Assembly (NCBI GenBank): GCA_012034805.1
Contig: JAAUOP010000002.1
Coordinates: forward strand, 8,093 to 72,092
DNA: 64,000 nt
Source: Synechococcales cyanobacterium CRU_2_2
Lineage (GTDB): Bacteria > Cyanobacteriota > Cyanobacteriia > PCC-9006 > JAAUQQ01
Reading direction: 5' to 3'
This document shows positions 17,321-59,858 of the stretch, piece after piece. Position 1 is the stretch's first letter. Each line of letters begins with the position of its first letter. The notes under the pieces were generated by a model. That model made no database searches, was not told the origin of the DNA, and was given only the letters and a program-made list of their open reading frames with translations. A program made the position numbers and the translations under genes.

Positions 17321-17998
17321 TCAGACTTCTTCGGTTGGGCTACCAGGTGAAGCTCCAGAGGATGAAGCTCCAGTCGATTGAGATTGCCACAGCTTAGGTA
17401 AAATCAAACCTGAACGATCGCGGTAAGCCCCAAACTCAGGATAGCGCGAGAGGGACTGGTCTTTTTTGCGCATGTTGGGAACGAAAATTGCTGCGACAAA
17501 CAGGCCCAACACGATCGCCGGAATCCAGTGCCAGGAAAGCAACACAAAGCTAGCATAAATCAAAACTTCGCCAAGATAGTTGGTATTGCGACAGCGGGCG
17601 AAGAAGCCTTCGGTGATCAAGCCGGGCTGGTATTTGAGCGTGTAGTACTTTTGGGCATCGCTGGTGTAGTGCAGAAACACGCCCAAAACATTGAGGCCGA
17701 CAGCGGCAGCGATCGCCCCCGTCGGCACCGCCACACCACTGCGAATCAACAGCCAGGGTGCAACCCAATAGGATGCCAAAGCCACAAAGGTGACGATTCC
17801 CATGGGCAGGGATACCTTTGTTTCCCACTGTTTGTCAGGGTAGATACGATCTTTGAGCAACCACAAGAACCCGTAGGTGCCGTGGAGGGCGAGGTAAATC
17901 CAGGGGGCGATTGCAAAGTTTTGATAGGCAACCATCAAGCCCAAGACCACAATAGCCGTTAGGCCCTTGTGCAAATTAATCGCGTGTTTGATTTTCAT
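17321..17998 (-). CDS. Membrane protein of the DUF1295 / steroid-5-alpha-reductase / ICMT-like methyltransferase fold
   Basis: Polytopic, with the C-terminal motif RNTNYLGEVLIY. Its ATG overlaps the upstream stop (ATGA at 17995-17998). Confidence 0.65.
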   Translation of the reverse strand: MKIKHAINLHKGLTAIVVLGLMVAYQNFAIAPWIYLALHGTYGFLWLLKDRIYPDKQWETKVSLPMGIVTFVALASYWVAPWLLIRSGVAVPTGAIAAAVGLNVLGVFLHYTSDAQKYYTLKYQPGLITEGFFARCRNTNYLGEVLIYASFVLLSWHWIPAIVLGLFVAAIFVPNMRKKDQSLSRYPEFGAYRDRSGLILPKLWQSQSTGASSSGASPGSPTEEV

Positions 17999-19428
17999 CG
18001 TTTTCCTCCGGTTGATTGCGATTCGGGCAAATTGCGCGGCGGGACGGTGCGGCCCTCGTAGAATTTCCGCTCGAGTTGAGTGAGGCCATACCGACTGGCT
18101 AAGGCGGCTAGAGCCAAGATCACGAGGGCGGCTTCAAAGCCTACCGGCAGGGGGGTAAGCCTGGGAAGTAGGGTTGCCAGAGCCCAGGCCAGGGCCGCGA
18201 GGGCGATCGCCCACACTTTCCCTCGCTGAACGTTTTGCAAGGCCCCTCGGCAACTGGCGCAATGTTGAGTGTGGGAAGTGTAGCGATCGAGCAACAGGTC
18301 TAGGTTTTCGATCGCTCCAGGCAGCCTCTGGCCCGGAAACGGGTCTGCCCCGTAGCGATTCACCCAATCCCGCAGGGCCACCACAAAAGTATCCGCCTTC
18401 GTAGGTAGATAAAACGCCTGTTTGTAGGCCTCACTGCCGCCGAGCTTTTCGAGGTAGCGCTCTTGAAAATGCAGAAAAATTTGGTCGTCTTCCAAGACGC
18501 CGTTTTGATTGAGGTGGGAAAACCAAGTCGGGGTCAGTTGGATGAATAAAGCGGGAATTTTGGACGGGAACTTGAAGGGAAATTTGGCAAACAGTCGGCA
18601 CTGGCCTTTGTGGGTGGGGGTTGCATAGACCACTGTCAGCGTGCGACCAAATTGCTGGGAGGTGAGGTCATGCCACATCAGATTTGGGGCAACGAAGGTT
18701 GTGGTCTGAGTGCCCAGTTTGCCAAGACGCGGGCCTTCGGGCCAGATGCCAGTAAAACCACTTTTGTCCTGGGTGAGCAGGTTCATTTGGGTGGGGCCAG
18801 CATTGACGCGGTTGCCCACGGATTTGTGGTGGGTGTAGGGCAAATGACTGGGGTCGAGGACATTTTCGAGTAACGTCAGTGCATCGTAGGGCAGGTCGCG
18901 AAACATGGTGAGCATGACCCAACTGTCGTCGCCGTCTTCGAGGGGATCGACAGTTGGCAATTGAGTTGTGTCAGCATTGCACGCATCGCCCGCATAGGCA
19001 AACAGCAAGCCCTGGTGAATGGCGGTTGGGAGGGCTTTGGCGCAGGCCCGCTGGGCCAATTGGGCTTGAGCCTTGGCAGCTTGTTGCGGAATCACCTCGC
19101 AATCACCCGCCCCTGAAAAAGCCCAGCCGTGGTAAGGACATTCGAGTTGCCCCGCCGCGTTGATCCGGCCCTGGGACAGCGGTGCAAGACGGTGAGGACA
19201 CTGATCTTCGAAGGCCCGCCAAGTGTTGCCCGCTTGATCCCACCAGATCACCAGATCTTGGTCGAGCAGGGTGAAGCGATGGGGCTGGCGCGGGTCGAGA
19301 TCCGATACGAAAAAAAGCGGGTGCCAGGCTTCTTTCCAATCGAACCGCTCGGGGTCTGGGCCTCCAGCCGTCTGGGGCCGATCGCAGGGCGGAGACTGGG
19401 TGGGTTGGAGGAGAGCCTGGTTTTCCAT
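17995..19428 (-). CDS. Rieske [2Fe-2S] oxygenase, pheophorbide a oxygenase (PaO/Tic55)-like
   Basis: Rieske motif CPHRLAPLS...CPYHGWAF, mononuclear iron motif NVLDPSHLPYTHH, C-terminal CxxC (HCASCRG) and a TM tail. Confidence 0.85.
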   Translation of the reverse strand: MENQALLQPTQSPPCDRPQTAGGPDPERFDWKEAWHPLFFVSDLDPRQPHRFTLLDQDLVIWWDQAGNTWRAFEDQCPHRLAPLSQGRINAAGQLECPYHGWAFSGAGDCEVIPQQAAKAQAQLAQRACAKALPTAIHQGLLFAYAGDACNADTTQLPTVDPLEDGDDSWVMLTMFRDLPYDALTLLENVLDPSHLPYTHHKSVGNRVNAGPTQMNLLTQDKSGFTGIWPEGPRLGKLGTQTTTFVAPNLMWHDLTSQQFGRTLTVVYATPTHKGQCRLFAKFPFKFPSKIPALFIQLTPTWFSHLNQNGVLEDDQIFLHFQERYLEKLGGSEAYKQAFYLPTKADTFVVALRDWVNRYGADPFPGQRLPGAIENLDLLLDRYTSHTQHCASCRGALQNVQRGKVWAIALAALAWALATLLPRLTPLPVGFEAALVILALAALASRYGLTQLERKFYEGRTVPPRNLPESQSTGGKR

Positions 19429-19498
19429 GGTGGAATTTGTTGCGAATTGTAAACGCTGTTTCTATTGTGCCACCAATACCCAGTCTATGGGCTAGGGC

Positions 19499-41926: not shown

Positions 41927-42083
41927 TGGGGCCTCCAGCGACCTGAGTGGGAATGGGGGACTAGGAATGGGTAGATGCCAAAAACGGCGCGAATCCGGCC
42001 AGCCAAAAATGAGCTAGACCTAAGATTCCCAGGGGCAATAGGTCGCGGTACAGTTTGGCCAGATAAACTTGTGGGGGTGAATT

Positions 42084-43351
42084 TTGGGCGAACAAGGTTT
42101 GGAGCAGCATCTGGATCAATATCTGAATCACCATGTGAATCCGCGCCCACGAGTGGGTGTGATTGGTGGCGGGCAGTTGGCCTGGATGATGGCAGCAGCG
42201 GTGCAAAAATTGGGCCTAGAGCTGCGGGTGCAGACGCCGAGTCTGGCGGATCCGGCGGTGGCGATCGCCCACCAAGTCTGTCTTGGCCCGATTCAAGACC
42301 TGGCCACGACGCGGGCATTGACGGCTCACAGCGACGTGATCACCTTTGAAAATGAATTTGTCAATTTGGCGGATCTGGCTCAGCTAGAGGCGGAGGGCGT
42401 GGTGTTTGCGCCGTCGTTGCGATCGCTCGCGCCCCTGCTCGACAAAGCTCACCAGCGGACCTATCTTCGGCAGCTGGGCTTGCCGACGCCGGACTTTTTG
42501 ACCCTAGCCGATATTCCCGCCGCTGATCGCCGCACCTGGAAAACCCCCTGGGGTTTCCGGTGGTGCTCAAGGCGCGACGGCTGGGCTATGACGGCCAAGG
42601 AACCTCGGTGATTCAGACGGCGGCGGAACTGAGGGCTGTGTTGGATACCGAAGGCTTTGAGCCGTTTTTGTTAGAAAAATTTGTCCCGTTCGATCGCGAA
42701 CTCGCGGTCATGGCCGCCCGAAATTCCGCCGGAGAAATTGCGGTCTATCCCGTTGTGGAAACCCAGCAGGAACGCCAAATTTGTCGTTGGGTTTTGGCTC
42801 CTGCTGAGCTCTCTACCGAGCTCCAGCAAGGGGTTGCAACCATTGCCACGCGGCTGCTCGAAGCTCTGGAATGGATCGGAATCTTCGGTCTTGAGCTCTT
42901 TGAATCAGGCGGGGAAATTTTGATCAATGAAATTGCACCCCGCACCCACAATTCGGGCCACTATACGCTAGATGCCTGCGAGACCTCCCAGTTTGAGCAA
43001 CAGCTGCGGGCGGTGACTGGGCGATCGCTCGGCAATCCCCAGCTCAAGGTGCCCGGAGCGGTGATGGTGAATCTACTCGGGTTTGAATCTGCTGATTTAG
43101 CTGATTTAGAAGACGAAAAGGGCCAATCCTCACCCAGGTCTATGACAGGATTCAATTATGTAGAAACGCAAAAGAAACTGGCTCAAATTCCCCAGGCCCA
43201 TCTGTATTGGTACGGGAAAAAGGTCTCCCGTCCGGGGCGAAAATTAGGTCACGTTACGGTGACTTTACGGTCAGAGGATAGCCAGGAACGGCGGCAGGAG
43301 GCGATGGCGGCGATCGCCGCCATCGATGCTATCTGGCCACCCCTTGCCTAA
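42084..43351 (+). pseudogene. purK: N5-carboxyaminoimidazole ribonucleotide synthase PurK, interrupted as assembled by a 1-nt frameshift at a C5 run (42545-42549)
   Basis: VGVIGGGQLAWMMA is in the first ORF and GFPVVLKARRLGYDGQG is in the second. Adding one C gives ...WKTPLGFPVVLK. Confidence 0.88.
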
Positions 43352-49876: not shown

Positions 49877-51286
49877 TCAGCTGATCTCATTGGCCAAGGG
49901 AGCAGGCTGAACGACGAAAGCCCAGGCCAGTGAGACCATCAGCACGGCCATATAACCTACGAGTGCCGACCACAGCAGCCCGTTGCTTTGGGTGTACCCA
50001 GCCGCGATCGCCAGTGGCCCAAATCCGATTCCAAAGGCCACGAGTGCGCCATTACGCAAGACCTCGCCCCGCTTCAGACCAATCCAGTAGCCCTCCAGCA
50101 TGAAAGCGATCGCCGTGCAGCTCAGCAGCGGCAACAACCAAATGGCCTCGATGCCCATGGATTGGGCAATGTCGGCGTGGTTGGTGAGTAGGCCAAACAC
50201 GGTTTGGGGAAAGCCGATCGCAATCCCGGCCAGGCCGAGGGCGATAACCAGGGCATGGGCGATCGCCGTCAGCAGCACGGGAATCGTGGCCTCCAGCTCG
50301 CCCTTGCCCTTAAAGTTGCCCACGAGGGTTTGGGTAGTGATGCCGATGCCCTGCACGGTGAATTGGCTGAGGAGGGCGATTTGAAGCAGTAATCCATTGC
50401 TGGCTAAGACCTCGGTGCCGAAGCCTGCGCTCAGATTGGTAAAAATGGCGTAGGTGGAAATCAGCACAATAAAGCGAATCAGGATATTGGCCTTGAGTGT
50501 CAAGATCGATTGGAGGGCGGGCCAATCCCAAATCTGGCGATAGGCAGCAGACAGAGCGGGCCAGTTGAGCCTGGTGGCGATCGCCACCAGCCCCAACCCC
50601 AGGGCCAAATATTGGCTCAAGGCCGTGGCTAACCCAGCCCCGGAGCTGCCCCAGTCCCAGCGCAAAATCATCCAGTAGTCCATCAGCACATTGGAAGCAT
50701 TGCCCGCTAGGGACATGAGCAGGACGACTCCAGTCCTTTCCTGCCCGAGGAACCAGCCCAGGAGTACAAAATTAAGCAAAACCGCCGGGGCTCCCCAGAT
50801 GCGAGCATTGAAATAGTCTAGGCCCGAGGCTTCGATCGCCGGGGTGCCAGAGAGAACGGCGAAACCGAGGGTTTTGATCGGGTATTGGAGCGCCAGGATG
50901 ACGAGAGAAAGGGCGATCGCCACTAGCCCGCAGCGTAGCAACGCCAGCATTACCCCAGTTTCCTTCGCTCCTGTGTCCTGCAATTTGGCCTCTTGCAATT
51001 TGGCCTCTTGCAATTCCAGCTCATCCGCCTGTCCCTGTGCCTCCGCTGTCAGAGCATTGGTGCTGTTGCGCAAAAACTTCAGGACTCGATAGAGATAATC
51101 AAACAGCAAACTGCCCAGAATCACCCCCCCCAAATCGCGAATGTCTTCTAGGTGCCCTAAAAACGCTGTATCTGCCAATCCCGCGAGCGGCACCATCATG
51201 TTGGAAAGCACGCTAACCGTTGCCAACCGGTAAAAACGGGGTAAAAAGTCGAGGTTCATAGTTTGGCGATTTCGCGAGCAATGCAT
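49877..51286 (-). CDS. MATE-family efflux transporter (DinF-like)
   Basis: 12-TM profile, with the family-typical N-terminus LSNMMVPLAGLADTAFLGHL. Confidence 0.85.
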   Translation of the reverse strand: MHCSRNRQTMNLDFLPRFYRLATVSVLSNMMVPLAGLADTAFLGHLEDIRDLGGVILGSLLFDYLYRVLKFLRNSTNALTAEAQGQADELELQEAKLQEAKLQDTGAKETGVMLALLRCGLVAIALSLVILALQYPIKTLGFAVLSGTPAIEASGLDYFNARIWGAPAVLLNFVLLGWFLGQERTGVVLLMSLAGNASNVLMDYWMILRWDWGSSGAGLATALSQYLALGLGLVAIATRLNWPALSAAYRQIWDWPALQSILTLKANILIRFIVLISTYAIFTNLSAGFGTEVLASNGLLLQIALLSQFTVQGIGITTQTLVGNFKGKGELEATIPVLLTAIAHALVIALGLAGIAIGFPQTVFGLLTNHADIAQSMGIEAIWLLPLLSCTAIAFMLEGYWIGLKRGEVLRNGALVAFGIGFGPLAIAAGYTQSNGLLWSALVGYMAVLMVSLAWAFVVQPAPLANEIS

Positions 51287-51387
51287 GAGGTGATCTAGAC
51301 ACTCTGGCGATCAGGACACTCTAAGAGATGGCCTGTCTTTGCCCATGTTACCTAAAACACATTTATTGCCTCTGTTTTGTAGGTCTC

Positions 51388-51446
51388 AATTCTGGGTTTG
51401 AATTCTGGGTTTGAATTCTGGGTTTGAATTCTGGGTTTGAATTCTA
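51388..51446. repeat. 13-bp tandem repeat, about 4.5 copies (aattctgggtttg)
   Basis: Direct reading. The last copy contains the stop codon of the FHA-reductase gene. Confidence 0.95.
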
Positions 51447-52994
51447 GGCGTCAATCACGACCCGTCCTCTCGGCCTTGCAATGCAGGGCAAGATAAACTG
51501 ACCGCGCTCCGCCAGGGGCAGGGCTTTTGGTTCTGAACTGTAAGTGACTTGGCCAGAGCAGAGCTGTTGTTTGCAAGCGCCGCAGACGCCCATGCGACAG
51601 GCGCTAGGGATGGCAATGTTTGCAGCTTCTGCGATCTCCAAAATTGAATCGGCTTCGTCATAGTTGATGGTCTTAGCCGATTGGGTAAAGACGAGGGTAC
51701 AGTCGTCCAAATCGAGTGGGGAATCTGGCAGCAGCTCCGGGGCGATCGCCGCGATCGCGAGTTCCCCTACTGGCTTTGCCGGGGCACCGAAGGATTCTTC
51801 GTGGTATTGATCCATCGGGAAGTCCAGGCCTATGAGACAGGTCTTAATCGCTGCCATAAAGGGATTGGGGCCACAGACGAAAACTTCGCGATCGCCCAAG
51901 TCGGGTGCGATCGCCTGGATCATGGCCGCATCCATCCGCCCCTGGTAGCCCATCCAGCTCTCACCCAGCGCTGAACCTGTGAGGGTTACGGCTAATTTAA
52001 ACTTAGGATGTTGCTGGTTCAACAACTCTAGCTCTTTGCGAAAGATCAGATCCTGGGGGCTGCGGGTGCTGTAGGCAAAGACAATATCTGTCTCTGCGGC
52101 GGTGTCGCAAATCCAGCGTGTCATCGACATCATTGGGGTGATGCCGCTGCCAGCGGAGAGCAGCAGCATCTTGGGTGCTGGCGTTGGGCCACAGGTGAAT
52201 TGCCCAAATGGGCCTTGGAGCTGAAGTCGGGAACCGATCCTCAAGTGGTCATGGAGCCAGTTAGACGCTAGGCCAGGAGTGGCATCGGGTGCCTCGACGG
52301 GGGCTGGGACGCGTTTGACCGTGATCGCGAGCAAATGGGGGCGAGACGGCGTGGATGAAATGGAATAGGAGCGCACAATGGTTTTTGGGCTGGAGCAGTG
52401 TTCTGCTGAGCTCTCTGGTGAGATGTCTGGTGAATGCTCTAATGAGATCTCTGGTGAATGCTCTGAATGATTCTCCGAGAGCATTCCTAGGGGAATTTGG
52501 AGCGTGACGAATTGCCCTGGCCAATAGTTAAAGTTGAGCTTGGGTTCTGCGATGAACTGAAAGGTTTTGACGTCGTGACTCTCGGGGATGATTTGGACGC
52601 AGCGAACGGTGATTTCTGAGTGGGGAGTCCAGGTTGGGAGTTGGGGATGGGTGGGGGCGATCGCCTCTGATGTATTGGCATCAGTCTGAATCGATTTCAC
52701 GACCAGAAAGAATCCGCAAATTCTGAGCAAATCATCCGCTTGGAGTGCAATATTCTGGCTGGGTAACAACATTTCGTTGTTGAGCCGTGAGCCGTCGGTG
52801 CTGCCAAGATCCGTGAAAAAATATTGACCGTCTCGATACAGAATACGCCCATGAACGCGACTGACTTCAGGGCTGTTCAGCAGCAAGTCGCAACCGGGTG
52901 TGCGACCAATTATCCATTCACAATTGGCTGTAGGGTCGAGAATTTCTTGCTCAACTGTGTAGGTTTCTTCATTGATGATTTTGAGAGTTAGCAT
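51444..52994 (-). CDS. FHA domain fused to a ferredoxin-NAD(P) reductase-type FAD/NAD module and a C-terminal plant-type [2Fe-2S] ferredoxin
   Basis: FHA: IIGRTPGCDLLLNSPEVSRVHGRILY...FTDLGSTDGSRLN. FAD: RSYSISS. NAD: LLLSAGSGITPMMSM. Ferredoxin: CRMGVCGACKQQL. Confidence 0.85.
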   Translation of the reverse strand: MLTLKIINEETYTVEQEILDPTANCEWIIGRTPGCDLLLNSPEVSRVHGRILYRDGQYFFTDLGSTDGSRLNNEMLLPSQNIALQADDLLRICGFFLVVKSIQTDANTSEAIAPTHPQLPTWTPHSEITVRCVQIIPESHDVKTFQFIAEPKLNFNYWPGQFVTLQIPLGMLSENHSEHSPEISLEHSPDISPESSAEHCSSPKTIVRSYSISSTPSRPHLLAITVKRVPAPVEAPDATPGLASNWLHDHLRIGSRLQLQGPFGQFTCGPTPAPKMLLLSAGSGITPMMSMTRWICDTAAETDIVFAYSTRSPQDLIFRKELELLNQQHPKFKLAVTLTGSALGESWMGYQGRMDAAMIQAIAPDLGDREVFVCGPNPFMAAIKTCLIGLDFPMDQYHEESFGAPAKPVGELAIAAIAPELLPDSPLDLDDCTLVFTQSAKTINYDEADSILEIAEAANIAIPSACRMGVCGACKQQLCSGQVTYSSEPKALPLAERGQFILPCIARPRGRVVIDA

Positions 52995-53035
52995 CGCTCG
53001 TGGGGGGGGAGAGAAATGATTTAAGGCTAAGGTAT

Positions 53036-54766
53036 TTAAGACTTGCGGCGAATCTGGGTAGGTTCGTAGGGGGATGTGTGGGTTGTGTGAGCGCTGTTAC
53101 TTCGTTGACGAATGAGCGTTCTGGGTACATCTGTCGATGAAAAATTACCCTTTCCGTAGATGAAGAAATCGCCTGGGCGTGCCTGGGCATCGATTAACTC
53201 ACCGAGGAACTGATCATGTTGGATGTCGTCAATATCGAGGGAAAGGCGCAGTTGATTGAGTAATTTTAGGCTGCTGCGAGTGGTGACAAGGCCTGTGTCT
53301 AGCGCCTCTTGCAAGACACCGTGATAGATCATAAGGCGATCTTTCTGGGTGGCGAGGGGAAGGGTTTGGGCCAGAGTTTGAACTGCCTCTGGACTCAAGG
53401 ATTCGAGGGTGCGATCGCCCAAAAATAGCTCGATATTCAGCGGTAATTTTCTCAGTTGACGCCGCAGCTTGTCCGCAATACTTTCCTGGTTATAGTGCTC
53501 AGGGCTGCGTTCCCAGGTACGGCAGATCCAAAGAACACTGATACAGGCAATCAATGCCTGGAAAGCTAGCTGGGCCTTGAGCGGCAGGCGATTGATCTCG
53601 GGACGTCCGCCGTAAATGAAAAAATATTGAAGGCAAGAAACGTGCAGATTGAAAAACCTGATGACGAACTTGTTCACGGTTCGTTTCAGTGTTGTGTCGC
53701 TGGTAAAATCGGCGCAAAAATAGCTCAAGGTAGGTTCCAAAACTGTAGCCGAGTCCTGCAAAACCGGCGAGTGTTAGCGGTGCGGCAACCAGCTTGGGAA
53801 TGTTGATTGCCTCTCCCGCAATGTAAAAACCAGGCTTGAGCAAGCTGCCCAATTGGTTCGGCTCATGGCTCCAGGCTCCCGAAAAGTAGTAGTCGGGATT
53901 GCCTGCGTAGAGCAAGTAGTAGACGATGTAACCCACCACCAACCCAAGATAGCCATATTGGACGAGCTGACGTCCGGGCCGGTTGAGATGATACCAGTAG
54001 GACTTTTCTGAGTCGATATCGAGGCAGGGAGATTTGCAGTTGATGCAGGTGCTTTGCTCTTGCCCTGGCTCCGGGCCGACGGTGCGGCACATGGATTGGG
54101 TAATACTGCCCATTGGTTTGGTGTGGGCCTTGCTGCCGAGCAGTCCGCGCGGGCCGGTAAATACGGTTTGAACCATGCCAAAGGGACAGACGTAGTGGCA
54201 CCAGCTTCTGCCGCCGTAGAGGGTAATCGTGGCGATCGCCCCCAAAATCGTCAAAATCAACAACATCGCTAGGGATATTCGACTGGAATTGACGAACAAA
54301 ATTCGCACATTTAACCCCAGAAAAATAGCGCAAATTGGAGATAAAAATGATTGCGCTGGAGCCAGAGGTTCTGATGAACATCAAGCAGTGGTTTTAGACC
54401 GAGTGCCCGAGGCAGTTGCGAGAGAAAGTAAAGCGGACAAATCCGTCGCCAGACTTCGTGACCGAACAAGAGTACGATAAAGATCGCACCCGGAATAACC
54501 ATTCCCCAAAAGACTCGGTTGCCGATCGCATAGGGAGATTGGGCCAGACAAACGCCTTGAACTTGAATGCATTGACCAGCCTGATCGGTGGCTTTGAGCA
54601 GCTCATCCTCAAACAGACTGCCACTTCCCGCTGCTGTCCAAGCTGCAGAAATGGGATCATAAAACAGCGATGTAATCAACAGCAACCAGGCAAAAACGAG
54701 CAGCCAACGAATGAGCCTAAACCGCCCTTCGGAACTGAGCAATGGCTTGTAAAAGAATGAAAGCAT
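53036..54766 (-). pseudogene. Polytopic 4Fe-4S-binding membrane protein (NapH/MauN/NosR-like) with a C-terminal soluble domain; one gene split into three ORFs by three 1-nt homopolymer frameshifts
   Basis: Motifs WRRICPLYF, RSWCHYVCPFGMVQ and CINCKSPC. Adding one base at each of 54321-54325, 53652-53656 and 53619-53624 gives a continuous ~578-aa protein (...ALFFLGLNVRILF..., ...HQVFSICTFLAFNIFFIYGGRPEINRL...). Confidence 0.7.
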
Positions 54767-54842
54767 GATGCATGTCTCCTTGACCTGGCTTGAGTATCCA
54801 GGAGAAGGACATCAGAGGGGAGTACCCCGCCGGGTGATCTGC

Positions 54843-55898
54843 TTAGGGGAAGAGGTGGTTAATACTGGTGGCAATGTCTTTGTTCTCTAAAAAATGATCC
54901 AGTGCCAGATACAGCCAAGACAACGACAGTTTGGGGTCTTGAACCGTGCTTTGGAACCCCAGCGCCTGACCCAGCGCCTCGACTTCTGGATTGATACTCG
55001 TGGTGTACAAATCGCACAGATTCGGGAAATCCCCACGCATCTTCTCCAGCCTTTGTTGAGCATCCTGCAGAAGTTGCAAGACAGCTTGAGAATGACGATA
55101 GGACGGCTCGATATGCCAACCTCGGATAAAAACAGCGTAGCAGGATGTATCTCCCGCAGCCGCCAACCGTATGGGATCTTCCATTTTGGTGGAAAACAGA
55201 TACAGGCTTTCGCTCGGGGGATCGGAAAACTTACATTCGGAGCTGCTGTGAGTTGGGAAAATAATATAAAACCCGATCGCCTGACCGTTATCTTTGCGCC
55301 GTAATACTCGCATTCCTTTCGGATACTGTTCTGCCCACTGACGCAGTCTTTGGATAATGTTGTGAGTACGTATTTCCCGTTTTGGATTGAGCCAACTGTA
55401 GTTTTTTTTGAGAAAGCTGGCCACCGGAACCGCGTCGGTGCGGTCATTAAAGTCATCCGCCACTAGCCCCAAGGCTTGGCACTCTTCCTCATCGACGATA
55501 AACCCTGCTGGAGGGCAAATGCTGATATAGGTGAGATTGCCGTCAAATTCTTTGCGGACTAGCTTCTTGTCGGCTAGTTTATCGAGCATCATGCCTGCGG
55601 AGCGATCGCTCCCTCGCTCTCGACCAGCATAAAACAATTCTGCTGCCTCCCGTTGGGTACAAGAGACGCTGCGATCGAGGGGCTCCAGAGAATCCAGTGG
55701 CCTGCTGGGCAAGGCACTCGCCCGCTCGGTATGGCGTTTGATCAGGCAATAGCCCCACAGCCGGACAAAGCACTCCGCCTGATACCGAGTCAGGTAATCG
55801 TAACGCTGGTGGAACTGTTCAACATACTGTTGCTGCGTTGCCAACGGAAAGTATTGAGCAAGGTCAGCGGCCTTGAATTCGATGGACACCTGATGCAC
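54843..55898 (-). CDS. Hypothetical protein: N-terminal winged-helix-like region plus a C-terminal GNAT-like fold
   Basis: 351 aa. MMLDKLADKKLVRKEFDGNLTYISI resembles a MarR-type wing. The C-terminal FIRGWHIEPSYRHSQAVLQLL...ALGFQ resembles an acetyltransferase core. Both calls are weak. Confidence 0.4.
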   Translation of the reverse strand: MHQVSIEFKAADLAQYFPLATQQQYVEQFHQRYDYLTRYQAECFVRLWGYCLIKRHTERASALPSRPLDSLEPLDRSVSCTQREAAELFYAGRERGSDRSAGMMLDKLADKKLVRKEFDGNLTYISICPPAGFIVDEEECQALGLVADDFNDRTDAVPVASFLKKNYSWLNPKREIRTHNIIQRLRQWAEQYPKGMRVLRRKDNGQAIGFYIIFPTHSSSECKFSDPPSESLYLFSTKMEDPIRLAAAGDTSCYAVFIRGWHIEPSYRHSQAVLQLLQDAQQRLEKMRGDFPNLCDLYTTSINPEVEALGQALGFQSTVQDPKLSLSWLYLALDHFLENKDIATSINHLFP

Positions 55899-56206
55899 CC
55901 CCGGAATACTTGCCTGGGAAGGGCTGCCCTGACAAAGCGGCCCTGGAAGAACGATCTAGCTCTAAGGTCTTGCGCATCTCTTCCCGAGGGCTTGCGTATA
56001 TCTCCTTAGAATTCTGCGTACAGGTATAAGGTTACCGTAAAAACTTCACCCTGTTTCACCTCACTTCAGGCTATGACCAACAGCCTACATCCCACTTCAA
56101 CCGTCTCAACCGTCCTTCTGCTTACTCGTGGGCATTACTGAGATAGCGCTGCGATAGTAGCTCTAGAGTCAGCCAAAACACTTAAGCCAAAACAGGCAGA
56201 ACGCAG

Positions 56207-56842
56207 ATGTCTACCTTCTCATCGAACCTTCCGTCAGACTTTTCCTCAAACTTCGCGTCCAACTTCACGTCCAACTTCACACCCGATATTACCCCGAACT
56301 TTCCCGCGCCTCTGATTTTGCAGATGGCCTTTGAAGGTATGTGGCAGGGGGTGTTAATTCTCAACGCCAAGCGCGAGATCGTTCAAGCCAACAGCCGAGC
56401 CCGAGAGCTGTGCAAGCAGCTCCTTCAGTCTACCCAGGGCCGTCCAGAGGGCAATAACTCGGTTCCCGAGGCCATTTGGAATGTGTGCCGCTTTCTGATA
56501 TCCAGTCGCCAAGACTTCCCAGAAGATCGCGTGATTCCTGAAGACGAGATTTCACTGGAGAACCTGGCGCACGTGAAGATTTCTGCTCAATGGCTCGACG
56601 TCAATGATTCTGAGGGGTCTTACATGATTGTTACTCTAGAGGATCGCACCGAGACGTTGCGTAATCTGGCGCGCTGGGATGCCCATCGCTATGGTCTAAC
56701 GGTGCGAGAGGCGGAAGTTTGGCTGCTCAAGTGCCAGGGATATTCCTATGACGAAATTGCGGCTGAATTGTACATCAGCCGTAATACGGTCAAAAAGCAC
56801 TTGAAGAGCATTACACTCAAGCGCGAAGGCACACTTTCTTAG
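56207..56842 (+). CDS. LuxR-family transcriptional regulator with an N-terminal PAS-like sensor region
   Basis: C-terminal HTH: LTVREAEVWLLKCQGYSYDEIAAELYISRNTVKKHLKSI. Confidence 0.85.
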   Translation: MSTFSSNLPSDFSSNFASNFTSNFTPDITPNFPAPLILQMAFEGMWQGVLILNAKREIVQANSRARELCKQLLQSTQGRPEGNNSVPEAIWNVCRFLISSRQDFPEDRVIPEDEISLENLAHVKISAQWLDVNDSEGSYMIVTLEDRTETLRNLARWDAHRYGLTVREAEVWLLKCQGYSYDEIAAELYISRNTVKKHLKSITLKREGTLS

Positions 56843-58340: not shown

Positions 58341-59858
58341 CTAACGAATTGGGGCAGATGCTTTGGGGCGTAGGTTCGAGGCTGCCCCGTAGATCTGGAC
58401 ATCTTCCCGTAAGTGCTTGAAATCAAAGTGGTAGCGGCTGCCAAGGGCACGGGCAATGGCAATCCAGGCCAAACAAATTGCGACTGAACTGGCGAGGGCT
58501 GACCCAAAACTGACCAGCAAATCACCCGCACCGGGCAATCCGGTCACCAGCGGGCTAAAGTCTGGTTTTGGAAAAAACAAGACCCCTGTGGCAATTCCGA
58601 TTACGGAGCTGACTAGGGCATTGATGCCACTGACACGGCGTGAATAGAGCCCGAACAAGAGTGGAAAAACCACCCCAGCGCAAACGAGATCTGCAATCAA
58701 AAAGATGTACAAAACACTGTATCCCTGGGAGGCGATCCAGACTGCGGGGAGACCGATGAGCACGGTTAAAATTCGAGACAGCTTGAGGATCGTGGATGGG
58801 GTCGCGCGAGGTAAAAGCTCGACCAAATCTAGGGTAAACAGACTGCCCATGCCGTTGAGCAAGGTATCCATGCTGCTCATGACTAAGGCCACCGCCAAGA
58901 CCATCACGATCGCCAAAAACCAAGCCGGAACCGCCAGTTGTTGCAGTAACTGAAAATAGGCTGTGTCTCCGGAAATGCCAAATTGCACAGCAAAGATGCC
59001 GAGTAAACCGGCCAAGATCACCATCGGTAGGATGAACAAAAACGCGGCCCCGAGAAAGGCATTACGCAGCACGCGATCGCTCTTGCAGGCGTAAACCCGT
59101 TGCCAGTTTCCCTGGTTGAAAATCTCCGCTGCACCAATGGCGATGATCAGTGTCCAGCCAAACCGAACACCACTGCGATCGCCCAAATCCGCTACTGTTG
59201 GAGCCATCGCCACCACAGGATCCGTCGCGGCATCCCATCCACCCAAGCTAAAAATTGCCGCTCCGAAGGCAAACATGAGTAGGGGGACAATGACAAAAAA
59301 CTGTAGGCGATCGGTGTAGATGCTGGCGCGCAGGCCGCCGTAGAGGGTGTAGATAAAAACCGCTGTGATGACCACCAAGGCGGTGAGGCCCAGGGGCACA
59401 TTGGCGAGCAGCTGAAGGGCTTTGGCGATCGCCGTCAACTCCGCCGCCAAATAGACAAACATATACAGAAACATCACGGCCTCGGTGAGTCCCTGCATGG
59501 GCAATCCATACCGATGGCGGGCGTACTCTGTCAGAGAATGTCCTGCGGGCATCAAACGGCGTAGGCGTGGCCCCAGCACCACAAATGTTACGACAGCGAG
59601 GGTAGAGGCGATCCCATAGCCCAATACGGCACTCAGACCACCAAAGGCAGACCCTGCCTCAGGTGGGCTAAACAAAATCCAGGCTCCCATGGATGAAGCG
59701 ACGATAGTGGCGAGTGCTGAGCGAGTGCCAAAATGATTGCGACTGGTGGTAAATTCCTCCAGATCCATGTGTTGACGGCTGATATGCAAAACAGCCATGA
59801 GCGTAAATACAGCGGCAGTTGCCAGCGTGACTAGAATTGCCACGGCACCGATTGACAT
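58341..59858 (-). CDS. Sodium:solute symporter (SSS) family transporter
   Basis: 505 aa with about 13 TM segments and an SSS-like N-terminal half. The protein is encoded 70 nt upstream of thiC on the same strand. Confidence 0.8.
   Translation of the reverse strand: MSIGAVAILVTLATAAVFTLMAVLHISRQHMDLEEFTTSRNHFGTRSALATIVASSMGAWILFSPPEAGSAFGGLSAVLGYGIASTLAVVTFVVLGPRLRRLMPAGHSLTEYARHRYGLPMQGLTEAVMFLYMFVYLAAELTAIAKALQLLANVPLGLTALVVITAVFIYTLYGGLRASIYTDRLQFFVIVPLLMFAFGAAIFSLGGWDAATDPVVAMAPTVADLGDRSGVRFGWTLIIAIGAAEIFNQGNWQRVYACKSDRVLRNAFLGAAFLFILPMVILAGLLGIFAVQFGISGDTAYFQLLQQLAVPAWFLAIVMVLAVALVMSSMDTLLNGMGSLFTLDLVELLPRATPSTILKLSRILTVLIGLPAVWIASQGYSVLYIFLIADLVCAGVVFPLLFGLYSRRVSGINALVSSVIGIATGVLFFPKPDFSPLVTGLPGAGDLLVSFGSALASSVAICLAWIAIARALGSRYHFDFKHLREDVQIYGAASNLRPKASAPIR

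What the first reader, a model, noticed from the sequence alone, without database searches (positions are those of the whole stretch)
51444..55898. Same-strand cluster: wHTH/GNAT-like protein, polytopic 4Fe-4S membrane protein and FHA-fused FNR-[2Fe-2S] reductase (candidate phospho-regulated membrane redox module)
Three minus-strand genes are separated by only 76 nt and 41 nt. The last one fuses a canonical FHA phosphothreonine-binding domain to a complete FAD/NAD(P)H reductase with a C-terminal plant-type [2Fe-2S] ferredoxin, which is phthalate-dioxygenase-reductase-like domain order. The middle gene, once three frameshifts are repaired, is a ~578-aa NapH/MauN/NosR-like membrane protein. It has CxxxCP motifs, a CxxCxxxC cluster, two extra TM helices and a ~190-aa soluble tail of unknown fold. 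An NAD(P)H-to-ferredoxin module next to a membrane Fe-S protein suggests a dedicated transmembrane or membrane-surface electron path. The FHA domain suggests it is gated by Ser/Thr phosphorylation. I know of no characterised system with this composition. No oxygenase, reductive dehalogenase or terminal reductase partner is adjacent.
Basis: partly seen in the sequence, partly recalled or inferred. Interest (0 to 1): 0.68.

Follow-up and report, generated by a model that had tools for sequence, protein, structure and literature searches.

The report
Signal-gated membrane NAD(P)H redox module
Two adjacent cyanobacterial genes encode an uncharacterised pair, an iron-sulfur membrane protein and an NAD(P)H reductase with a phosphothreonine-reading domain, that is conserved in hundreds of species, is sometimes fused into one protein, and often lies next to vanadium haloperoxidase genes, so it may be a switchable source of electrons or peroxide at the membrane.

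Summary
Three minus-strand genes lie 76 and 41 nt apart, the last gene is FHA+FAD+NAD+[2Fe-2S], and the middle gene repairs to a 577-aa Fer4_5 membrane protein.

Each of the three frameshifts is one missing T in a T-run. Two of them are absent from other assemblies of the same organism, and purK is broken the same way, so they are mostly assembly errors.

Only the middle gene (g2) and the reductase (g3) form a module:
- They are adjacent or fused in 62 of 72 informative genomes.
- g2 relatives occur in at least 584 species.
- Distant relatives fuse g2 to FNR-Fdx, and to FHA, cNMP-binding or PilZ domains. A Ser/Thr kinase, cyclase or GGDEF gene lies alongside.

This points to a signal-gated, two-component membrane NAD(P)H oxidoreductase.

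The wHTH/GNAT gene (g1) instead pairs with the divergent LuxR gene and is not part of the module.

A new lead emerged. Two unrelated vanadium haloperoxidase clades lie within 10 kb of g2 in 28 of 80 loci (17 of 35 with full flanks), though none lies in this window. The likeliest output, by inference only, is regulated superoxide/H2O2 for haloperoxidases. The system is uncharacterised, and g2's fold has no PDB match.

The parts
51444..52994 (-). g3: FHA-FAD-NAD(P)H-[2Fe-2S] reductase, 516 aa, intact
   Evidence: ORF. Pfam finds FHA, FAD_binding_6, NAD_binding_1 and Fer2. The RxYS, GSGITP, CG and Cx4Cx2C..C motifs are invariant in 54 homologues.
52719..52916 (-). FHA domain of g3 (residues 27-92)
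   Evidence: Pfam E=5.4e-14. Translation checked. G30, S45 and H48 are invariant, and R31 and R46 are at least 90% conserved.
52197..52622 (-). FAD-binding barrel of g3 (about residues 125-266), with a low-complexity insert at 52377-52478
   Evidence: Pfam FAD_binding_6 covers residues 204-266. The insert SENHSEHSPEISLEHSPDISPESSAEH was located.
51843..52163 (-). NAD(P)H-binding domain of g3 (residues 278-384)
   Evidence: Pfam NAD_binding_1, E=3e-19.
51471..51680 (-). C-terminal plant-type [2Fe-2S] ferredoxin domain of g3 (residues 439-508)
   Evidence: Pfam Fer2, E=7e-12. C466, C471, C474 and C504 are invariant.
53036..54766 (-). g2: 8-TM Fe-S membrane protein, 577 aa once three single-T deletions are restored
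   Evidence: Three-frame translation. 1729 homologues were found, the best intact ones at 69% identity over the full length. AlphaFold2 model of the homologue P0001 has pLDDT 86.6.
54321..54325 (-). Frameshift site 1 (T5 here, T6 in two other assemblies of the same species)
   Evidence: L001 and L084 both carry one more T at this site.
53652..53656 (-). Frameshift site 2 (T5), shared with the Logan assembly L001 and unresolved
   Evidence: Window and L001 are identical here. Homologues read QVF-SICTF across the site.
53619..53624 (-). Frameshift site 3 (T6 here, T7 in L001)
54144..54263 (-). Fer4_5 segment: TM4 plus the C190-H-Y-V-C194-P195 motif
   Evidence: Pfam PF12801, E=4.5e-9. Translations checked. 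Invariant in 91 homologues.
54024..54089 (-). Cytoplasmic Cys cluster C227...C241-x2-C244-x3-C248
   Evidence: Invariant in the alignments. Coordinates checked.
54548..54571 (-). Invariant Cys pair C66/C73 in the first outward-facing loop
   Evidence: The topology is inferred from the model's helices.
53859..53966 (-). TM5 and the following outer loop: 8 Tyr and 1 Trp in 36 residues, mostly invariant
53048..53119 (-). Disordered C-terminal tail of g2 with two T-x-I-R motifs (TLIR at 53108-53119, TQIR at 53048-53059), candidate phosphothreonine sites for the FHA domain
   Evidence: Translations. The tail has pLDDT below 50 in the model. The motif co-occurs with an FHA-reductase neighbour in a 50/10/3/7 table, Fisher p=0.0012.
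54843..55898 (-). g1: wHTH plus GNAT-fold protein, 351 aa. A neighbour, not a member of the module
   Evidence: No Pfam or NCBIfam hit. 700 homologues. GNAT fold by Foldseek. Adjacent to g2 only in L002 and L003. Paired with GerE/LuxR in Calothrix.
56207..56842 (+). LuxR/GerE-type regulator, divergent partner of g1
   Evidence: Pfam GerE. The same divergent pair occurs in L002, L003, L082 and L084.

Best explanation
g2 (53036-54766) and g3 (51444-52994) encode the two halves of a conserved, signal-gated membrane oxidoreductase.

Shown:
- The two genes are a unit that is conserved and sometimes fused.
- g3 has every motif of an FNR-type NAD(P)H/FAD reductase with a plant-type [2Fe-2S] cluster.
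- g2 is an 8-helix membrane protein. It has seven invariant cysteines on the side predicted to be cytoplasmic, an invariant Cys pair and a tyrosine-rich helix leading to the other side, and a disordered tail.
- A signalling domain (FHA here, cNMP-binding or PilZ in relatives) always sits between or beside the two catalytic parts.

Inferred:
- Electrons run NAD(P)H -> FAD -> [2Fe-2S] (g3) -> Fe-S centre(s) on the inner face of g2 -> an acceptor in or beyond the membrane.
- The FHA domain reads a phosphothreonine. The likeliest sites are the T-x-I-R motifs in g2's tail, written by a receptor Ser/Thr kinase. This controls whether the reductase is productively coupled to g2.
- In cyanobacteria the output is most likely regulated production of superoxide/H2O2, or another outward flow of electrons, that serves vanadium haloperoxidases. 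This would be analogous to the NADPH-oxidase/bromoperoxidase locus of the red alga Asparagopsis.

g1 is a separate unit with the LuxR gene. The frameshifts in g2 are mostly or wholly assembly errors.
For: Unit:
- g3 lies directly downstream of g2 on the same strand in 60 loci and is fused to it in 2, out of 72 informative genome loci.
- A Deltaproteobacteria MAG has the reverse order, with a 4-nt gap.
- Fusions of g2 with FNR-Fdx: P0039, P0082 and P0091 and P0432, P0453 and P0468.

Family size:
- At least 584 GTDB species genomes encode a relative.
- 324 representatives at 50% identity score E<=1e-30.

Catalytic motifs are invariant.

Regulation:
- FHA residues are conserved.
- Architectures found: g2-FHA-cNMP, g2-FHA, g2-cNMP and g2-PilZ-FNR-Fdx.
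- A cyclase gene lies near g2-FHA-cNMP, and a HAMP-GGDEF gene lies 28 nt upstream of g2-PilZ-FNR-Fdx.
- Receptor kinases (Pkinase+Peripla_BP_6) lie beside the pair in Pleurocapsales and in Phormidium, in different arrangements.
- The tail is disordered. T-x-[ILVMF]-[RK] or DITEI motifs track the presence of an FHA-reductase neighbour (50/10/3/7, p=0.0012) and are missing from the fused forms.

Haloperoxidase link:
- VBPO-type genes score E=1e-118 to 1QHB/7QVW. NapH1-type genes score E=1e-56 to 9PTR.
- One or the other lies within 10 kb in 28 of 80 loci and in 17 of 35 loci with full flanks, in several different gene orders.
- In Moorena, a signal-peptide cytochrome c6-like gene precedes g2, and the haloperoxidase also has a signal peptide.
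- Precedent: the Asparagopsis mbb locus holds three VBPO genes plus one NADPH oxidase gene (PMC12115072).

Frameshifts.
Against: - The 64-kb window holds no haloperoxidase, kinase or AAA_35 gene.
- Seventy-nine of 80 metagenome loci with VBPO homologues, mostly high-GC soil contigs, lack g2 and g3. Haloperoxidases therefore do not need the module in general.
- The VBPO-type neighbours have no obvious signal peptide, so outward-directed peroxide is not clearly required for them.
- g2 has no haem-binding ferric-reductase domain and no recognised O2-reducing site.
- No solved structure resembles g2, so the transmembrane path is conjecture.
- Ser/Thr kinase genes are common in cyanobacteria, so their enrichment is modest: 19 of 80 loci here against 7 of 80 in the control set.
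- The tail-motif association is not corrected for phylogeny and has exceptions (L021, L058, L070, L077, L078).
- In g2-FHA fusions the FHA domain sits on g2 itself, so 'FHA docks on the g2 tail' cannot be the whole story.
- Frameshift site 2 is shared by two assemblies.
Confidence: 0.5

Rival explanations
1. The module works as a reductive supply line rather than an oxidant generator. It carries NAD(P)H electrons outward to reduce a periplasmic or lumenal cytochrome c or a thiol pair (C66/C73). The purpose would be to repair or protect envelope proteins from the hypohalous acids made by neighbouring haloperoxidases, as Fre-MsrQ-MsrP does against HOCl damage in E. coli.
For: - An invariant Cys pair lies in the first outward loop.
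- In Moorena, a cytochrome c6-like gene with a signal peptide lies directly upstream of g2 on the same strand.
- The haloperoxidase linkage fits self-protection as well as it fits peroxide supply.
- MsrPQ repairs periplasmic methionines oxidised by HOCl through a membrane electron carrier (abstract of PMC12525009).
Against: - No MsrP-like, DsbD-like or thioredoxin-like gene recurs next to the pair.
- The cytochrome c neighbour is confined to Moorena.
- Heavy signal gating (FHA, cNMP, PilZ) is more typical of a dangerous output than of a repair supply.
Confidence: 0.2
2. The module is an alternative NAD(P)H:plastoquinone oxidoreductase. g2 would act like NapH in reverse, passing electrons from its Fe-S centres to the quinone pool. 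The signalling domains would tune respiratory or cyclic electron flow.
For: - g2 shares the Fer4_5 motif of NapH-type quinol-interacting proteins.
- g3's closest solved relatives are NqrF subunits of the Na+-NQR quinone reductase.
- An aromatic-rich TM5 could form a quinone site.
Against: - It does not explain the repeated linkage to two haloperoxidase clades.
- It does not explain the conserved outward-facing Cys pair.
- No quinone-related genes recur nearby.
Confidence: 0.15
3. g3 is an ordinary class-I reductase for an oxygenase or desaturase encoded elsewhere (like GbcB, PaaE or phthalate dioxygenase reductase). g2 would be only a membrane anchor or sensor.
For: - The best NCBIfam match of g3 is GbcB at 312 bits, followed by Hcr and PaaE.
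- A Rieske gene lies beside the pair in L166, and two fatty-acid desaturase genes lie near it in L168.
Against: - The GbcB score is far below the family cut-off of 500.
- No oxygenase recurs across the 80 loci.
- g2's invariant cysteines and its fusions to FNR-Fdx argue that g2 is itself the redox partner.
Confidence: 0.08
4. In this particular organism g2 is a genuine pseudogene and the cluster is decaying, so the window's copy has no function.
For: Frameshift site 2 (T5 at 53652-53656) is present both in the window and in the Logan assembly L001.
Against: - Sites 1 and 3 are absent from L001, and site 1 is also absent from L084.
- The two MAG assemblies of this species differ by 5 single-base indels, mostly in short base runs, over 7.3 kb.
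- purK is broken in the same way.
- Apart from the shifts, g2 has no stop codons and keeps all invariant residues.
- g3 is intact.
Confidence: 0.07

Closest known systems
NapH / NosR / MauN / CcoG-type polytopic Fe-S membrane proteins (Pfam Fer4_5, PF12801)
   Same: A membrane helix ends in a C-x3-C-P motif at the inner face. A further cysteine cluster lies in a cytoplasmic loop. The presumed role is passing electrons between cytoplasmic-face Fe-S centres and partners on or across the membrane (Pfam hit; the rest from general knowledge of these families).
   Different: - Only one full CX3CP motif.
- One Cx13Cx2Cx3C group instead of two ferredoxin-type CX2CX2CX3CP motifs.
- 8 TM helices.
- A C-terminal helical domain of about 135 aa and a disordered tail.
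- No nap, nos, mau or cco genes nearby.
- The electron donor is a dedicated NAD(P)H reductase.
FNR-family reductases with a C-terminal plant-type ferredoxin (phthalate dioxygenase reductase 2PIA; GbcB, Hcr, PaaE)
   Same: The domain order is flavin barrel, NAD(P)H domain, then [2Fe-2S]. All cofactor motifs are present.
   Different: - An N-terminal FHA domain.
- Scores below every equivalog cut-off (GbcB 312 against 500).
- The partner is a membrane Fe-S protein, not a soluble oxygenase.
NqrF with NqrD/E in Na+-NQR
   Same: A NADH/FAD/[2Fe-2S] subunit feeds an iron-sulfur centre held by membrane subunits. NqrF domains are the best PDB sequence matches of g3. The intramembrane Fe-S centre of NqrD/E comes from my own knowledge.
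   Different: - NqrF has its ferredoxin domain and a TM anchor at the N-terminus.
- g2 is unrelated to NqrD/E.
- There are no flavin-carrying NqrB/C equivalents.
NADPH oxidases (NOX/DUOX, bacterial SpNOX) and the two-component Fre-MsrQ system
   Same: An FNR-type NAD(P)H dehydrogenase is coupled, fused or split, to a polytopic membrane electron carrier. Control by signalling inputs is tight. NOX is clustered with vanadium bromoperoxidases in Asparagopsis (PMC12115072; PMC5676040 and PMC12525009 listed).
   Different: - There is no haem-b ferric-reductase domain.
- The membrane part is an Fe-S protein of unknown fold.
- ROS production is untested.
FHA-domain regulators of metabolism (OdhI/GarA) downstream of Ser/Thr kinases
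   Same: An FHA domain links Ser/Thr kinase signalling to the activity of a metabolic enzyme. There is a weak NCBIfam similarity to OdhI and FhaB.
   Different: Here the FHA domain is covalently part of the enzyme, and the likely phospho-site lies on the partner subunit's tail.

Membership tests
NapH/NosR-type Fe-S membrane proteins (Fer4_5) | TM helix followed by a C-x3-C-P motif (Pfam PF12801 above its cut-off) | tested here: met
   36.6 bits against a cut-off of 22. C190, C194 and P195 are invariant in 91 sequences.
NapH/NosR-type Fe-S membrane proteins (Fer4_5) | Two CX3CP motifs (feature taken from my knowledge of NapH and NosR) | tested here: not met
   The second site is only C110-P111, with no partner Cys four residues upstream.
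NapH/NosR-type Fe-S membrane proteins (Fer4_5) | Two ferredoxin-type CX2CX2CX3CP [4Fe-4S] motifs in the cytoplasmic C-terminal part | tested here: not met
   Only C227...C241-x2-C244-x3-C248 is present. No other Fer4-type Pfam family hit.
NapH/NosR-type Fe-S membrane proteins (Fer4_5) | Encoded with periplasmic nitrate reductase, N2O reductase or methylamine dehydrogenase genes | tested here: not met
   None in the window region or in the neighbour clusters of the 80 loci.
FNR-family reductase with C-terminal plant-type ferredoxin | Flavin-binding barrel with the R-x-Y-S motif | tested here: met
   FAD_binding_6 hit. R208, Y210 and S211 are invariant.
FNR-family reductase with C-terminal plant-type ferredoxin | NAD(P)H domain with G-x-G-x-x-P and C-G motifs | tested here: met
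   NAD_binding_1, E=3e-19. G282-S-G-I-T-P287 and C374-G375 are invariant.
FNR-family reductase with C-terminal plant-type ferredoxin | Cx4Cx2C...C ligands of a [2Fe-2S] cluster | tested here: met
   Fer2, E=7e-12. C466, C471, C474 and C504 are invariant.
GbcB (glycine betaine monooxygenase reductase), the best-named relative | Score above the NCBIfam equivalog cut-off | tested here: not met
   312 bits against a cut-off of 500.
FHA domain | FHA fold signature with conserved G-R, S-x-x-H and the loop Ser/Thr | tested here: met
   Pfam E=5.4e-14. G30, S45, H48, S65 and G68 are invariant. R31 and R46 are at least 90% conserved.
FHA domain | Binds phosphothreonine peptides | not testable with these tools
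   Only indirect support: the tail-motif association and kinase gene neighbours.
NADPH oxidase / ferric-reductase-domain family (NOX, MsrQ) | Six-helix ferric reductase domain with four His ligating two b haems | tested here: not met
   No such Pfam hit on g2. There is no PDB fold match at all, best E=1.2.
NADPH oxidase / ferric-reductase-domain family (NOX, MsrQ) | Produces superoxide or H2O2 from NAD(P)H and O2 | not testable with these tools
   Needs biochemistry.
GNAT acyltransferase fold (g1 only) | GNAT alpha/beta fold | tested here: met
   Foldseek probability 1.00 and TM (target) 0.6-0.7 to 1L0C, 3DR6 and 4PV6, on a model with pLDDT 90.
GNAT acyltransferase fold (g1 only) | Acyl-CoA binding motif and catalytic residues | not tested
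   No Pfam or NCBIfam hit. The motif was not examined.

The most novel reading that the evidence does not exclude
g2+g3 is a haem-free transmembrane NAD(P)H oxidase of a new structural kind. Fe-S centres, a tyrosine-rich helix and an outer Cys pair would replace the two b haems of NOX. Receptor kinases, cyclic nucleotides or c-di-GMP would switch it on. If so, it could be the enzymatic source of regulated extracellular superoxide/H2O2 in benthic and mat-forming cyanobacteria, and the oxidant supply for their vanadium haloperoxidases.
Probability: 0.25. Interest if true: 0.85.

Novelty: new variant of a known kind. Interest (0 to 1): 0.68.

Why it matters
If the reading is right, hundreds of cyanobacterial species, and some other bacteria, carry an unstudied switchable enzyme that moves NAD(P)H electrons into or across the membrane.

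Three questions become testable:
- Where do cyanobacterial vanadium haloperoxidases, which make brominated and iodinated volatiles and natural products, get their peroxide?
- Which enzyme makes the extracellular superoxide that nearly all marine microbes release? The abstract of PMC7035516 describes the flux but names no enzyme.
- How do Ser/Thr kinase, cAMP/cGMP and c-di-GMP signalling reach redox metabolism directly?

The membrane subunit has a confidently predicted fold with no solved relative. A structure would therefore also show how the poorly understood NapH/NosR-type CX3CP proteins handle electrons.

Tried and rejected
- **Promoter and terminator scan of 51000-56400.** Counts were at shuffle level, so it says nothing about co-transcription.
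- **Foldseek of the g2 model against the PDB.** No match (best E=1.2), so no structural analogue could be named.
- **Literature searches.** I searched for FHA + ferredoxin reductase + cyanobacteria, and for haloperoxidase + 4Fe-4S/FHA. Nothing describes this pair.
- **g1, LuxR, the MatE gene and the 156-aa downstream gene as module members.** Rejected. MatE and the 156-aa gene were found in none of the 80 loci, and g1 and LuxR only in the two closest relatives.
- **Programmed frameshifting at the T-runs.** Rejected. Orthologues are plain open reading frames, and T-run lengths differ between assemblies of one organism.
- **Reverse test (does VBPO imply g2-g3?).** Negative outside cyanobacteria: 1 of 80 metagenome loci. 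This limits the claim to a lineage-specific partnership.
- **Other recurrent neighbours.** These are lineage-restricted and were not taken as core parts: SulP transporter, flavin amine oxidase-family gene, AAA_35, DUF1822, CHAT/HetF-like, ShlB-type.
- **Search for T-x-I-R motifs in the g2-FHA fusions.** Uninformative.

Full report
**What is in the window**

Three minus-strand genes occupy 51444-55898:
- g1 at 54843..55898 (351 aa).
- g2 at 53036..54766, in pieces.
- g3 at 51444..52994 (516 aa).

The spacers are 76 and 41 nt.

Pfam finds FHA, FAD_binding_6, NAD_binding_1 and Fer2 in g3, and Fer4_5 in the central piece of g2. It finds nothing in g1.

A three-frame translation shows g2 running in frame 1, then frame 0, then briefly frame 2, then frame 1 again. 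Joined at those points it gives 577 aa. This aligns over its whole length, at 69% identity, with intact proteins of 588-598 aa.

**The frameshifts**

Each shift is one missing T in a T-run. On the + strand these are A-runs at 54321-54325, 53652-53656 and 53619-53624.

The window comes from the MAG 'Synechococcales cyanobacterium CRU_2_2', because g1 is 100% identical to its protein HC771_00780. Two other assemblies cover the same organism:
- A Logan contig from run SRR14117740 (L001) is identical over 3905 nt except that it has T6 and T7 at sites 1 and 3.
- A second MAG of the same species (RU_4_20, L084) is 99.6% identical. It also has T6 at site 1. It carries its own single-base deletions in a G-run of g2 and an A-run of g1. 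In total it differs from the window by five single-base indels in 7.3 kb, mostly in short base runs.

The housekeeping gene purK is split in the window at AAAACCCCCTGGGG.

These are the marks of assembly error, not gene decay. Only site 2 is shared by two assemblies and remains open. Orthologues are ordinary open reading frames, so programmed frameshifting is not indicated.

**Which genes belong together**

A scan of one genome per GTDB species found at least 584 genomes with a g2 relative. The best 80 loci, all cyanobacterial, were fetched with 10-kb flanks.
- In 60 of them an FHA-FNR-Fdx gene follows g2 on the same strand.
- In 2 the reductase is fused to g2 without an FHA domain.
- In 10 with enough downstream sequence no reductase is adjacent.

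g1 and the divergent LuxR-type gene accompany the pair only in the two closest relatives, L002 and L003. The g1 family has 700 members across cyanobacteria. In Calothrix NIES-2098 the g1 homologue lies divergent from a GerE/LuxR gene with no g2 or g3 nearby. So g1 belongs with the LuxR gene.

The g1 model (pLDDT 90) has an N-terminal helical part with a two-strand wing and a C-terminal GNAT fold.

**Anatomy of the two partners**

In 54 g3 homologues the following are invariant or nearly so:
- the FHA signature residues (G30-R31, S45-R46-x-H48, S65, G68);
- the flavin motif R208-x-Y-S;
- the nucleotide motif G282-S-G-I-T-P;
- C374-G375;
- the four [2Fe-2S] cysteines.

The best named relative of g3 is GbcB at 312 bits, well below the cut-off of 500. 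The best solved relatives are NqrF domains.

g2 has nine invariant cysteines in 91 homologues:
- C66 and C73 in the first loop.
- C110-P111 after TM2.
- C190-x3-C194-P195 after TM4.
- C227, C241, C244 and C248 in the following loop.

An AlphaFold2 model of the 69%-identical P0001 is confident (pLDDT 86.6, pTM 0.85). It shows eight membrane helices, a helical C-terminal domain and a disordered tail. Foldseek finds no PDB relative (best E=1.2).

By the positive-inside rule the Cys-rich loops and the tail face the cytoplasm, and C66/C73 face outward. This topology is my inference.

TM5 and the loop after it hold 8 Tyr and 1 Trp in 36 residues, most of them invariant. This could be a hopping path or a quinone site. 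That too is inference.

**Evidence that the module is signal-gated**

An exhaustive profile search found 877 representatives of clusters at 50% identity, 324 of them at E<=1e-30. Many are 940-1355 aa long. Pfam on a sample shows these architectures:
- g2-FHA-cNMP_binding
- g2-FHA
- g2-cNMP_binding
- g2-PilZ-FAD/NAD/Fer2
- g2-FAD/NAD/Fer2

The gene contexts match the domains:
- A g2-FHA-cNMP gene is followed by an FHA-FNR-Fdx gene, with a nucleotide cyclase gene nearby.
- A HAMP-GGDEF gene lies 28 nt upstream of a g2-PilZ-reductase fusion.
- In Phormidium CCY1219 a receptor kinase (Pkinase+Peripla_BP_6) is divergent from g2-FHA and FHA-FNR-Fdx. Kinases of the same type follow g3 in four Pleurocapsales loci.
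- A Deltaproteobacteria MAG has an FNR-Fdx gene 4 nt upstream of g2-cNMP, so the partnership extends beyond cyanobacteria.

The catalytic core (g2 plus FNR-Fdx) is constant, while the input domain is exchangeable.

In the split, FHA-bearing form seen in the window, g2's disordered tail carries T-x-I-R motifs (TLIR and TQIR here). Across the loci such motifs, or a terminal DITEI in the long-tailed subclass, go with the presence of an FHA-reductase neighbour (50/10/3/7, Fisher p=0.0012). They are absent from the fused forms.

This suggests phospho-dependent docking. The test is not phylogenetically corrected and has exceptions. The g2-FHA fusions show that other FHA ligands must also exist.

**What the electrons are for**

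No partner is visible in the 64-kb window. In the 80 loci, however, two unrelated clades of vanadium haloperoxidase recur:
- A VBPO type, E=1e-118 to the Corallina enzymes and 1e-106 to the Acaryochloris enzyme.
- A NapH1/NapH3 type, E=1e-56 (Pfam VCPO domains).

One or the other lies within 10 kb in 28 of 80 loci and in 17 of 35 loci with complete flanks. The arrangements vary across genera: upstream on the same strand, upstream divergent, or directly after g3. They also occur next to g2 copies that lack an adjacent reductase (L041, L067, L011, L021).

Other neighbours are lineage-restricted:
- In Moorena a signal-peptide cytochrome c6-like gene precedes g2, and the haloperoxidase has a signal peptide.
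- In Phormidesmis-type loci a SulP anion transporter follows g3.

Haloperoxidases consume H2O2. In the red alga Asparagopsis three VBPO genes are clustered with an NADPH oxidase (PMC12115072). Regulated outward electron flow that makes superoxide/H2O2 is therefore my preferred output.

The caveats are real:
- 79 of 80 VBPO loci from metagenomes, mostly high-GC and non-cyanobacterial, lack g2 and g3.
- The VBPO-type neighbours lack signal peptides.
- g2 has no known O2-reducing cofactor site.

A reductive 'repair or protection' role like Fre-MsrQ-MsrP, a quinone reductase role, and a conventional oxygenase-reductase role remain open and are scored as rivals.

**Comparison with what is known, and novelty**

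g2 meets the Fer4_5 motif. It fails the other defining features of NapH and NosR: a second CX3CP motif, two ferredoxin-type motifs, the helix number and the operon context.

g3 is a bona fide FNR-family reductase with a C-terminal ferredoxin, but it is not an equivalog of any named enzyme.

The pair works like known two-part membrane reductases (NqrF-NqrD/E, Fre-MsrQ, NOX). It uses a membrane subunit of unsolved fold and an unusual set of interchangeable signalling inputs.

I found no paper on it. Databases call the proteins '4Fe-4S binding protein', 'FHA domain-containing protein' or 'glycine betaine catabolism B'.

I rate it a new variant of a known kind. It is widespread and uncharacterised, with a concrete and testable functional lead. 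The copy in this window is an ordinary member whose apparent damage is mostly an assembly artefact.

Noticed in passing
window 42081-43348 (junction about 42527-42560): purK (N5-CAIR synthetase) is split into two overlapping ORFs. The pre-ATP-grasp domain is in one frame, and ATP-grasp plus PurK_C are in another. The break is at AAAACCCCCTGGGG. It is probably a homopolymer assembly error and serves as a marker of the assembly's error profile.
   Followed up: partly
window about 60272 and about 58578, compared with L084: Compared with a second MAG of the same species, the window lacks one base at each place (GTTG-TTA and CTT-GTTTTTT). The second lies inside the 505-aa sodium:solute symporter-like ORF 58341-59858, whose C-terminus may therefore be misread. 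No gene was called there in L084.
   Followed up: no
window 54843-56842; L082 5089-7035; L084 4615-6569: The wHTH+GNAT-fold gene (a family of about 700 cyanobacterial proteins with no Pfam model) forms a conserved divergent pair with a GerE/LuxR-type regulator gene, independently of g2 and g3. It may be a regulator/acyltransferase unit of unknown role.
   Followed up: partly
window 52377-52478: A low-complexity insert of about 30 aa, containing an imperfect repeat (EHSPEISL / EHSPDISP), lies inside the FAD-binding barrel of g3. It falls where the homologues' consensus has only a short stretch (LEIxGKxV).
   Followed up: no
window 53859-53966 (g2 TM5 and the following loop): A 36-residue stretch holds 8 tyrosines and 1 tryptophan (LVQYGYLGLVVGYIVYYLLYAGNPDYYFSGAWSHEP), mostly invariant across 91 homologues. 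It could be an aromatic electron-hopping path or a quinone site.
   Followed up: partly
L051, L060, L061, L066, L071, L081 (for example L061 13563-15281): A SulP-family anion transporter (Sulfate_transp+STAS) lies directly downstream of g3 on the same strand in Phormidesmis-type genomes. This family moves anions, so the placement may fit a halide-related theme, or it may be plain synteny.
   Followed up: no
L004-L009 (for example L004 8713-9282): In Moorena a cytochrome c6-like gene, with a signal peptide and a C-terminal extension, lies directly upstream of g2. The order there is cytochrome c, g2, g3, then a signal-peptide haloperoxidase. In L006 and L007 about 1.7-1.9 kb is inserted between g2 and g3.
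   Followed up: partly
L058 11675-11782 (Calothrix parasitica NIES-267): Only a 36-residue, 78%-identical remnant of the reductase follows g2 there. This suggests g3 was lost or disrupted in that genome.
   Followed up: no
L168 12366-15805 (Deltaproteobacteria MAG): Two membrane fatty-acid desaturase genes lie about 1.5 kb from the FNR-Fdx/g2-cNMP pair. This could hint at another electron acceptor, or it could be coincidence.
   Followed up: no
window 17998-19461: A PaO-type Rieske oxygenase (Rieske + PaO domains) lies about 32 kb from the cluster. There is no sign that it is linked to g3.
   Followed up: no
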